DNA of 64,000 nucleotides from Escherichia coli (GTDB lineage Bacteria; Pseudomonadota; Gammaproteobacteria; Enterobacterales; Enterobacteriaceae): assembly GCF_003334305.1 (NCBI RefSeq), contig NZ_QOWS01000006.1; one strand, given 5' to 3'. The notes under the pieces were generated by a model. It made no database searches, was not told the origin of the DNA, and saw nothing but the letters and a program-made list of their open reading frames with translations. Position 1 is the first letter of the stretch; every line of letters starts with the position of its first letter. This document shows positions 42,005 through 42,480 of this stretch, piece after piece. Made by a program: the position numbers and the translations under genes.

Positions 42005-42394
42005 ATGAAAAAGCTGCAAATTGCGGTAGGTATTATTCGCAACGAGAACAATGAAATCTTTATAACGCGTCGCGCAGCAGATGCGCACATGGCGAATAAA
42101 CTGGAGTTTCCCGGCGGTAAAATTGAAATGGGCGAAACGCCGGAACAGGCGGTGGTGCGTGAACTTCAGGAAGAAGTCGGGATTACCCCACAACATTTTT
42201 CGCTATTTGAAAAACTGGAATATGAATTCCCGGACAGGCATATAACTCTGTGGTTCTGGCTGGTCGAAAGCTGGGAAGGGGAGCCGTGGGGTAAAGAAGG
42301 GCAACCCGGTGAGTGGATGTCGCTAGTCGGTCTTAATGCCGATGATTTTCCGCCAGCCAATGAACCGGTAATTGCGAAGCTTAAGCGTCTGTAG
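42005..42394 (+). CDS. mutT: 8-oxo-dGTP diphosphatase MutT (Nudix)
   Basis: 129 aa; Nudix box GGKIEMGETPEQAVVRELQEEVGI. Confidence 0.96.
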   Translation: MKKLQIAVGIIRNENNEIFITRRAADAHMANKLEFPGGKIEMGETPEQAVVRELQEEVGITPQHFSLFEKLEYEFPDRHITLWFWLVESWEGEPWGKEGQPGEWMSLVGLNADDFPPANEPVIAKLKRL

Positions 42395-42480
42395 GTCGGA
42401 TAAGGCGTTCACGCCGCATCCGACATTTGCACAAGATGCCTGATGCGACGCTGTCCGCGTCTTATCAGGCCTACGTGCGG
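42392..42480. repeat. REP pair (BIME) between mutT and yacG, overlapping the mutT stop codon
   Basis: gtaggtcggataaggcgttcacgccgcatccgaca and inverted gcctgatgcgacgctgtccgcgtcttatcaggcctac; the same REP family as at 3097-3183. Confidence 0.85.

What the first reader, a model, noticed from the sequence alone, without database searches (positions are those of the whole stretch)
42392..42480. REP/BIME overlapping the mutT stop codon; possible copy-number difference from K-12
Two inverted REP units fill the mutT-yacG spacer and the first begins on the mutT stop codon. From memory the K-12 spacer is about 116 bp longer, which would fit extra REP units there. REP clusters are hotspots for strain-to-strain variation and bind gyrase/IHF.
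Basis: inference. Interest (0 to 1): 0.3.

Follow-up and report, generated by a model that had tools for sequence, protein, structure and literature searches.

The report
REP pair copy-number variant after mutT
The short gap between the E. coli genes mutT and yacG holds one pair of the well-known REP repeat hairpins where strain K-12 holds two, which is an ordinary and already described kind of strain-to-strain variation, and this window carries the commonest form.

Summary
The observation and the interpretation are both confirmed. mutT ends at 42394. Its TAG stop (42392-42394) is the last three bases of the conserved GTAG of a y-type REP (42391-42424). A 13-nt S linker and an inverted z2-type REP (42438-42474) follow, and yacG's stop lies 19 nt further on. 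The spacer is 99 bp here and 215 bp in MG1655, so the difference is exactly 116 bp. K-12's extra 116 bp is a second y-S-z2 pair plus a 33-bp AT-rich linker with a perfect IHF consensus. The window's pair is identical to K-12's yacG-proximal pair, and the window's spacer has no IHF consensus. The locus is a tandem array with a 116-bp period and 1, 2 or 3 units (99, 215 and 331 bp). Among 5,426 complete E. coli genomes about 51-56% carry one unit, as the window does. About 39% carry two or more units, and a few percent are interrupted by the REP-targeting elements IS621 or IS1397. A three-unit allele has a mosaic middle unit, which points to unequal recombination or slippage. Variable tandem BIME number between E. 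coli strains is already published (PMC3333891). Verdict: real, ordinary, already known, low interest.

The parts
42005..42394 (+). mutT (8-oxo-dGTP diphosphatase), 129 codons, stop TAG at 42392-42394
   Evidence: ORF list. Annotated as mutT in the 100% identical strain A7 and in MG1655.
42391..42394 (+). Conserved GTAG tetranucleotide of the y REP; its last three bases are the mutT stop codon
   Evidence: Read directly from the sequence. GTAG is defined as the conserved 5' tetranucleotide of E. coli REPs in PMC3333891.
42391..42424 (+). y-type REP (GTAG plus an imperfect palindrome; the stem runs 42395-42424)
   Evidence: Pattern search: 2 matches in the window against 0 expected. Fuzzy match to the y consensus. 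Inverted repeat I2. RNA hairpin of -18.8 kcal/mol, z = -5.0.
42425..42437 (.). Short head-to-head linker (S-type), ATTTGCACAAGAT, 13 nt
   Evidence: Sequence between the two REPs. It is conserved in all units of all alleles.
42438..42474 (+). z2-type REP in inverted orientation (iREP; CTAC tail at 42471-42474)
   Evidence: Fuzzy match to the z2 consensus, with a second copy at 3097-3133. Inverted repeat I4. Hairpin of -21.3 kcal/mol, z = -6.3.
42390..42397 (.). TGTAGGTC: the 8-bp stretch within which the 116-bp K-12 indel (unit A plus linker) can be placed
   Evidence: Pairwise alignment A1 and unit dissection.
42472..42473 (.). Site (CAGGCCT^AC) where IS621 is inserted in other strains; not occupied in the window
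   Evidence: Junctions in L006. The same break point occurs in H168 and H169, whose matches end at query position 173, which is window 42472.
42475..42493 (.). 19-nt remainder between the z2 REP and the yacG stop; partly complementary to the z2 left arm (a possible REP remnant)
   Evidence: Inverted repeat I5 and the RNA fold.
42494..42697 (-). yacG (DNA gyrase inhibitor), convergent with mutT; stop TGA at 42496-42494
   Evidence: ORF list and annotations.

Best explanation
The feature is one unit of a BIME-2-type repeat. It consists of a y REP, a 13-nt S linker and an inverted z2 REP, and it lies in the spacer between the convergent genes mutT and yacG. The GTAG of the y REP supplies mutT's TAG stop codon.

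The locus is a tandem array with a 116-bp period, made of a REP pair plus a roughly 33-bp linker. The number of units varies among Escherichia strains: 1 unit (99-bp spacer, the window and about half of E. coli), 2 units (215 bp, K-12) or 3 units (331 bp).

Copy number most likely changes by unequal recombination or replication slippage between the roughly 90%-identical units. This step is inferred, from the exact 116-bp steps and from a mosaic middle unit in a three-unit allele.

Functionally, the hairpins are expected to act as generic REPs. This is inferred from the literature and was not tested here. As RNA, they would form 3' stem-loops that end or stabilise the two convergent transcripts. 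Because the y hairpin starts directly after the mutT stop codon, it would also impede terminating ribosomes and damp MutT synthesis. As DNA, they would be a potential gyrase and HU/cruciform site.

Each gene keeps the same proximal REP in every allele. The one-unit allele therefore differs from K-12 mainly by lacking the internal linker with its predicted IHF site and one redundant REP pair. That difference is probably close to neutral.
For: Anatomy.

Comparison with K-12: the difference is exactly 116 bp, the window's unit equals K-12's distal unit, and K-12's extra DNA is a second y-S-z2 pair plus linker.

Unit series: 1, 2 and 3 units with periods of 116 and 116 bp. The ETEC1717 middle unit combines diagnostic bases of K-12's units A and B. 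A divergent Escherichia (L030) also has 3 units, with periods of 116 and 117 bp.

Population: the K-12-type linker is in 1868 of 5426 genomes and a diverged linker type is in 264. In the spread samples, 34 of 60 rows and 20 of 39 rows are one-unit.

IHF: the consensus WATCAANNNNTTR occurs only in the linkers of two-unit alleles and is conserved between two diverged linkers. There are only 3 matches in the whole 64 kb on both strands, and none in the window's spacer.

Literature: BIME-2 is y + z2 + S in tandem copies whose number varies between E. coli strains (PMC3333891). REPs less than 16 nt from a stop codon stall ribosomes and down-regulate translation (Liang et al. 2015, as summarised in PMC12306157). 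IS621 and IS1397 target REPs (PMC1525189).

Terminators: the simple consensus scan finds no intrinsic terminator in the spacer, which is compatible with the REP hairpins marking the 3' ends.
Against: The direction of change, contraction or gain, is not resolved. The window's unit is pure K-12 unit B. A random crossover between units A and B would usually leave a chimera, so simple homologous recombination from a K-12-like allele would need a crossover within the first 8 bp.

No expression, protein-binding or translation data were available, so all functional statements are inference from the family.

The primary paper on REPs near stop codons could not be read, and mutT is not confirmed to be among its tested genes.
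Confidence: 0.88

Rival explanations
1. Unit gain or loss is catalysed by the REP-associated tyrosine transposase (TnpA_REP/RAYT), which cuts and rejoins at REP/iREP and linker sites. Under this reading it is not produced by general recombination or slippage.
For: The indel boundaries fall on TGTAGGTC, that is, on the GTAG recognised by TnpA_REP. The one-unit allele is a clean, non-chimeric unit B both in the window and in O157:H7, as precise excision would produce. PMC3333891 reports that TnpA_REP binds GTAG-bearing REPs and cleaves at iREP and linker sites, and discusses BIME number variability. A 7-bp duplication, TCTGTAG, sits exactly at the GTAG in E70.
Against: The ETEC1717 middle unit is a patchwork of A-type and B-type bases, which is typical of homologous exchange or gene conversion. 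No in vivo BIME mobilisation was shown in the text read. The clean unit B could equally reflect a single ancestral event that spread by descent or recombination.
Confidence: 0.1
2. The REP pair is a functional naRNA4-like nucleoid-associated non-coding RNA gene, an HU partner that bridges cruciform DNA.
For: Rfam RF02564 (naRNA4) scores 78.4 bits, above its gathering score of 59.5, at 42394-42471 on the + strand. naRNA4 is defined as a 77-bp Y-linker-Z2 unit of REP325 (PMC4550694), which is the same architecture.
Against: The Rfam model is effectively a model of any BIME-2 unit. The opposite strand also scores 52.9 bits. The experimental evidence concerns REP325 only. There is no promoter-like site here, so any RNA would be part of the mutT or yacG 3' UTR.
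Confidence: 0.05
3. The short spacer is an assembly or sequencing collapse of a tandem repeat and not a real allele.
For: Tandem 116-bp repeats can collapse in short-read assemblies.
Against: The identical 281-bp sequence occurs as a single uninterrupted match in many independent complete genomes, including LY180, EC20 and O157:H7 strains. About half of 5,426 complete genomes have one unit.
Confidence: 0.01

Closest known systems
BIME-2 (bacterial interspersed mosaic element, family 2) of E. coli
   Same: It is composed of a y REP and a z2 REP in inverse orientation separated by a short S linker. It occurs as tandem units whose number differs between strains. This follows the definition in PMC3333891 and was tested.
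   Different: The window has a single unit. In the multi-unit alleles at this locus the inter-unit linker is long (about 33 nt), AT-rich and carries an IHF consensus, which resembles the L linker of BIME-1. In the window's other REP cluster (3097-3181) the tail-to-tail linker is only 14 nt. The K-12 array would therefore probably be classed as an 'atypical BIME'.
BIME-1 / RIP-RIB elements (REP - IHF site - REP)
   Same: In K-12 and AST85, the z2 tail, linker and y tail with WATCAANNNNTTR in the linker have the REP-IHF-REP layout.
   Different: The window lacks this linker entirely. The REP next to it is z2, not z1. The linker was not compared with the published L consensus.
naRNA4 / REP325 units (Rfam RF02564)
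   Same: It is the same 77-78-nt y-linker-z2 two-hairpin unit and scores above the gathering threshold.
   Different: REP325 is a six-unit array at yjdM-yjdN with experimental HU and nucleoid data. Nothing is known for this locus, and the match reflects repeat-family identity and not a shown function.
Stop-codon-proximal REPs that attenuate translation (Liang, Rudd & Deutscher 2015)
   Same: [quoted passage not shown] Here the distance is 0 nt, and the REP's GTAG contains the stop (criterion as cited).
   Different: The effect was not measured for mutT, and the primary paper was not readable here.

Membership tests
REP (E. coli y and z2 types) | An imperfect palindrome of 30-40 nt able to form a hairpin | tested here: met
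   Inverted repeats I2 and I4. Hairpins of -18.8 and -21.3 kcal/mol, z = -5.0 and -6.3.
REP (E. coli y and z2 types) | A conserved GTAG tetranucleotide 5' to the foot of the palindrome (CTAC on the inverted copy) | tested here: met
   GTAG at 42391-42394 and CTAC at 42471-42474. Definition from PMC3333891.
REP (E. coli y and z2 types) | High copy number in the genome, in intergenic positions | tested here: met
   A second z2 copy and a second, identical y copy lie at window 3097-3181. The 341-bp K-12 query finds a median of 19 places per genome across 5,426 genomes.
BIME-2 | One y and one z2 REP in inverse orientation separated by a short S linker | tested here: met
   y at 42391-42424, a 13-nt linker, and z2 at 42438-42474. 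The consensus sequences used for typing were recalled from memory and are consistent with PMC3333891 and PMC4550694.
BIME-2 | Occurs as multiple tandem copies flanked by s, l or r motifs | tested here: inconclusive
   There is one copy in the window and 2-3 copies in other strains. The inter-unit linker is about 33 nt with an IHF consensus, so it is L-like, which suggests an 'atypical BIME'. It was not compared with the published s, l, r or L consensus sequences.
BIME-1 / RIP (IHF-binding REP element) | A long L linker carrying an IHF binding site between the two REPs | tested here: not met
   No WATCAANNNNTTR occurs anywhere in the window's spacer, and the linker there is 13 nt. The feature is met only in the K-12 and AST85 alleles.
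naRNA4 (Rfam RF02564) | A covariance-model score at or above the curated gathering threshold | tested here: met
   78.4 bits against a gathering score of 59.5.
naRNA4 (Rfam RF02564) | Expressed as an RNA that binds HU and condenses the nucleoid | not testable with these tools
   Shown only for REP325 (PMC4550694).
Translation-attenuating REP (Liang et al. 2015) | A REP positioned fewer than 16 nt downstream of the stop codon of the upstream ORF | tested here: met
   The stop is at 42392-42394 and the stem begins at 42395. Criterion as quoted in PMC12306157.
Translation-attenuating REP (Liang et al. 2015) | Ribosome stalling and tmRNA-dependent reduction of the upstream protein | not testable with these tools
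   No expression data were available, and the primary paper is not held.

The most novel reading that the evidence does not exclude
The allelic state of this REP array may set lineage-specific MutT dosage. Two things vary: the unit number, and whether mutT stops at the TAG inside the GTAG or reads three codons into the hairpin. The second form is seen in O157:H7, B2 strains and AST85-type strains. A dosage difference would shift the A:T-to-C:G mutation rate. On this reading a 'junk' repeat would act as a heritable, reversible tuner of an antimutator gene.
Probability: 0.04. Interest if true: 0.5.

Novelty: already known. Interest (0 to 1): 0.1.

Why it matters
It matters little beyond bookkeeping. 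The result shows that the difference from K-12 is a genuine, common allele of a known type of repeat polymorphism. It is not an assembly error or a new element. K-12, not this window, carries the minority form.

The locus is a compact illustration of how REP arrays behave. It shows exact unit-step length variation, mosaic units, REP-targeting IS insertions, and a coding sequence whose stop codon is supplied by the repeat.

The locus could also serve as a simple length marker (99, 215 or 331 bp, or IS-interrupted) for strain typing.

The only route to real interest would be a demonstrated effect of these alleles on MutT level and mutation rate.

Tried and rejected
1. My first z2 pattern had a loop one N too long and found nothing. 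A fuzzy search corrected this.

2. I tried to count the one-unit allele directly from query coverage. This failed because the tool joins the two pieces in two-unit genomes. The frequencies therefore come from the linker counts and from classifying the spread rows, which gives a range of 51-56%.

3. A junction query for IS621 at this site was not locus-specific, because IS621 sits in near-identical REPs elsewhere. No exact count is given.

4. The primary paper and the review on REPs near stop codons (PMC4427526, PMC4829296) are not held. The mechanism is cited second-hand from PMC12306157, whose supplements do not mention mutT.

5. The outgroup scan returned E. albertii truncated before the spacer (L009) and did not return E. 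fergusonii. The polarity of the change is left open.

6. H167 looked like a new allele but is simply the AST85-type two-unit form, with a 201-bp spacer.

7. A simple tandem duplication as the origin of K-12's extra 116 bp was rejected. The sequences flanking the array are unrelated to the linker.

8. The consensus scan found no intrinsic terminator or promoter in the spacer.

Full report
**What is at the coordinates.** The window is E. coli chromosome. A 6-kb stretch around the finding is 100% identical to several complete genomes. In one of them, strain A7, the genes are annotated secA, mutT, yacG, zapD and coaE. mutT is at 42005-42394 (+) and yacG at 42494-42697 (-), and the two converge on a 99-bp spacer at 42395-42493.

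From 42391 the sequence reads GTAGGTCGGATAAGGCGTTCACGCCGCATCCGAC. This is a y-type REP whose conserved GTAG holds the mutT stop TAG at 42392-42394. A 13-nt linker, ATTTGCACAAGAT, follows. Then comes GCCTGATGCGACGCTGTCCGCGTCTTATCAGGCCTAC (42438-42474), a z2-type REP in the opposite orientation with its CTAC tail outward. Nineteen bases remain before yacG's stop codon.

**Is it more than chance?** Yes.
- The y pattern occurs twice in the 64 kb, against 0.00 expected in 100 shuffles.
- Each unit folds far better than shuffled sequence: -18.8 kcal/mol (z = -5.0) and -21.3 kcal/mol (z = -6.3).
- The pair scores 78.4 bits (E = 3e-12) on Rfam RF02564. That model is built on a 77-bp Y-linker-Z2 unit (PMC4550694).
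- A second REP cluster in the window (3097-3181) carries a z2 unit and an identical y unit, arranged tail-to-tail with a 14-nt linker.

**Comparison with K-12.** In MG1655, mutT ends at 111433 and yacG starts at 111649, which gives a 215-bp spacer. The pairwise alignment shows one clean 116-bp gap and otherwise near identity.

K-12 has two y-S-z2 pairs. Unit A overlaps the mutT stop, and unit B lies next to yacG. They are separated by a 33-bp AT-rich linker, AAGGGATTTCTAACTCATTGATAAATTTGTTTT. The window's single pair is identical to unit B at every position where A and B differ. The indel can be placed anywhere within the shared TGTAGGTC at 42390-42397.

The linker carries TATCAATGAGTTA on the minus strand, a perfect match to the IHF consensus WATCAANNNNTTR. 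A diverged linker in strain AST85 keeps the consensus as TATCAACGTGTTA. The whole 64-kb window has only three such matches on both strands, and its mutT-yacG spacer has none.

**Population picture.**
- The K-12-type linker is present in 1868 of 5426 complete E. coli genomes.
- The AST85-type linker is present in a further 264. About 39% of genomes therefore carry two or more units.
- Classifying evenly spaced rows of two searches gives 34 of 60 and 20 of 39 rows with a one-unit spacer.
- Combining the counts bounds the one-unit allele at roughly 51-56%.
- Named strains show the pattern. K-12 derivatives and BL21 have two units. LY180, O157:H7, 536, NC101 and O25:H4 strains have one. Phylogroup assignments for these strains are my background knowledge.
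- ETEC1717 has a 331-bp spacer with three units.
- A divergent Escherichia genome, L030, whose MutT is only 90% identical, also has three units.
- The spacer lengths of 99, 215 and 331 bp form an exact series with a 116-bp step.

**Mechanism of variation.** K-12's extra DNA is not a simple tandem duplication of flanking sequence, because the flanks are unrelated to the linker. The array therefore pre-existed, and units are gained or lost as whole units.

ETEC1717's middle unit starts like unit B (TCGG). It continues like unit A (CATTCGCACACG and CTGGCGCG), then shows B's right edge (CCTACGTG), followed by A's linker. Such a mosaic is what unequal exchange or gene conversion between misaligned units produces. 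I therefore favour unequal recombination or slippage.

Multi-unit alleles occur in K-12-like strains, in AST85-like strains with about 12% diverged sequence, and in a divergent Escherichia with a recognisably homologous linker. This suggests that the multi-unit state is old and that one-unit alleles are contractions. That is inference, and the polarity is not settled.

One point is left unexplained. The window's unit, and that of O157:H7, is pure unit B. From a K-12-like parent this would need a crossover within the first 8 bp. It fits a single ancestral event or a site-specific process at GTAG, such as TnpA_REP, which binds GTAG-bearing REPs and cleaves iREP and linker sites in vitro (PMC3333891). 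I keep that as a minor rival.

**Likely function.** All of this section is inferred. No intrinsic terminator or promoter is predicted in the spacer. The REP hairpins are therefore the obvious 3' structures for both convergent mRNAs.

The y hairpin begins immediately after the mutT stop. REPs closer than 16 nt to a stop codon are reported to stall ribosomes and lower translation of the upstream gene (Liang et al. 2015, as summarised in PMC12306157). The z2 REP is 19 nt from yacG's stop, which is outside that range.

Each gene's proximal REP is the same in one-, two- and three-unit alleles. Unit number should therefore change little, apart from removing the predicted IHF site and one potential gyrase or cruciform site.

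Across 35 enterobacterial loci the spacer is usually 0-85 bp with one strong hairpin. GTAG-type REPs sit there in Citrobacter, Pseudocitrobacter, Pseudescherichia and others. In a Citrobacter MAG and a Pseudocitrobacter MAG the stop codon is again the TAG of a GTAG.

**Comparison with what is known.** By the published definitions, BIME-2 is y + z2 with a short S linker in tandem copies. Atypical BIMEs mix in L linkers. [quoted passage not shown]

The window's element meets the composition criteria of a BIME-2 unit. The long linker with an IHF consensus in multi-unit alleles makes the K-12 array look 'atypical', but I did not compare it with the published L, s, l or r consensus sequences.

The naRNA4 match reflects shared repeat architecture and not a shown function.

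IS621 is inserted at CAGGCCT^AC of the z2 REP. IS1397 is inserted in the z2 loop. Both are known REP-targeting elements (PMC1525189).

**Verdict.** The phenomenon is a textbook REP/BIME copy-number polymorphism, the window carries the commonest allele, and K-12 is the variant. Novelty: already known. Interest: low.

Noticed in passing
window 42386-42403; L003, L005, L002 and L130 at the mutT 3' end: The MutT C-terminus is polymorphic because of the REP. The window and K-12 end ...KRL, with the stop being the TAG of the GTAG. O157:H7 F1273, 536, AST85 and WCHEC040047 have CTG TAG changed to GTG TAT. They read three more codons into the y REP stem and stop at the TAA or TAG in GGATAAGG, which gives a 399-bp mutT ending ...KRVYVG or ...KRVYAG.
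   Followed up: partly
window 42472/42473 (equivalent site); L006 1653-2950; L007: IS621 is inserted at CAGGCCT^AC of the z2 REP in strain CAU16175, with CT on both sides. Other sampled genomes (H58, H168, H169) break at the same point. IS1397 is inserted in the z2 loop in strain SCU-112, with TGGC duplicated. Both elements are known REP-targeting ISs. About 3-5% of sampled rows are interrupted in this way.
   Followed up: partly
L004 (strain E70), at the mutT stop; also H154: A 7-bp tandem duplication, TCTGTAG|TCTGTAG, lies exactly at the mutT stop and REP GTAG junction and lengthens the spacer by 7 bp. Its origin, whether slippage, an IS footprint or TnpA_REP activity, is unknown.
   Followed up: no
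window 3097-3181: A second REP cluster: a z2 REP (3097-3133), a 14-nt linker and a y REP (3148-3181), arranged tail-to-tail. The y unit is 100% identical to the one at 42391-42424.
   Followed up: partly
window 41921-41990 (+): Rfam STnc40 (a Salmonella sRNA candidate) scores 81.7 bits over the last codons of secA and the GC-rich hairpin with T-run between secA and mutT. It probably reflects the conserved secA terminator.
   Followed up: no
window 36185-36274 (+) and 53746-53859 (-): Rfam hits above gathering score to PssrA ('plasmid-encoded Shigella sRNA A', 105.5 bits) and tp2 (103.4 bits) on this chromosomal window. Other hits were SgrS (8328-8554), the Leu leader (14534-14683) and a TPP riboswitch (6472-6571).
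   Followed up: no
L073 (Salmonella enterica subsp. arizonae), mutT-yacG spacer: Salmonella arizonae has an unrelated 340-bp spacer without recognisable REPs. Most other Enterobacteriaceae have 0-85 bp with a single hairpin.
   Followed up: no
L001 (MG1655) 704-707: In K-12's unit A the z2 tail reads CTAA instead of the conserved CTAC, so the complement of GTAG is mutated. In ETEC1717's middle unit the tail reads CTAC.
   Followed up: no
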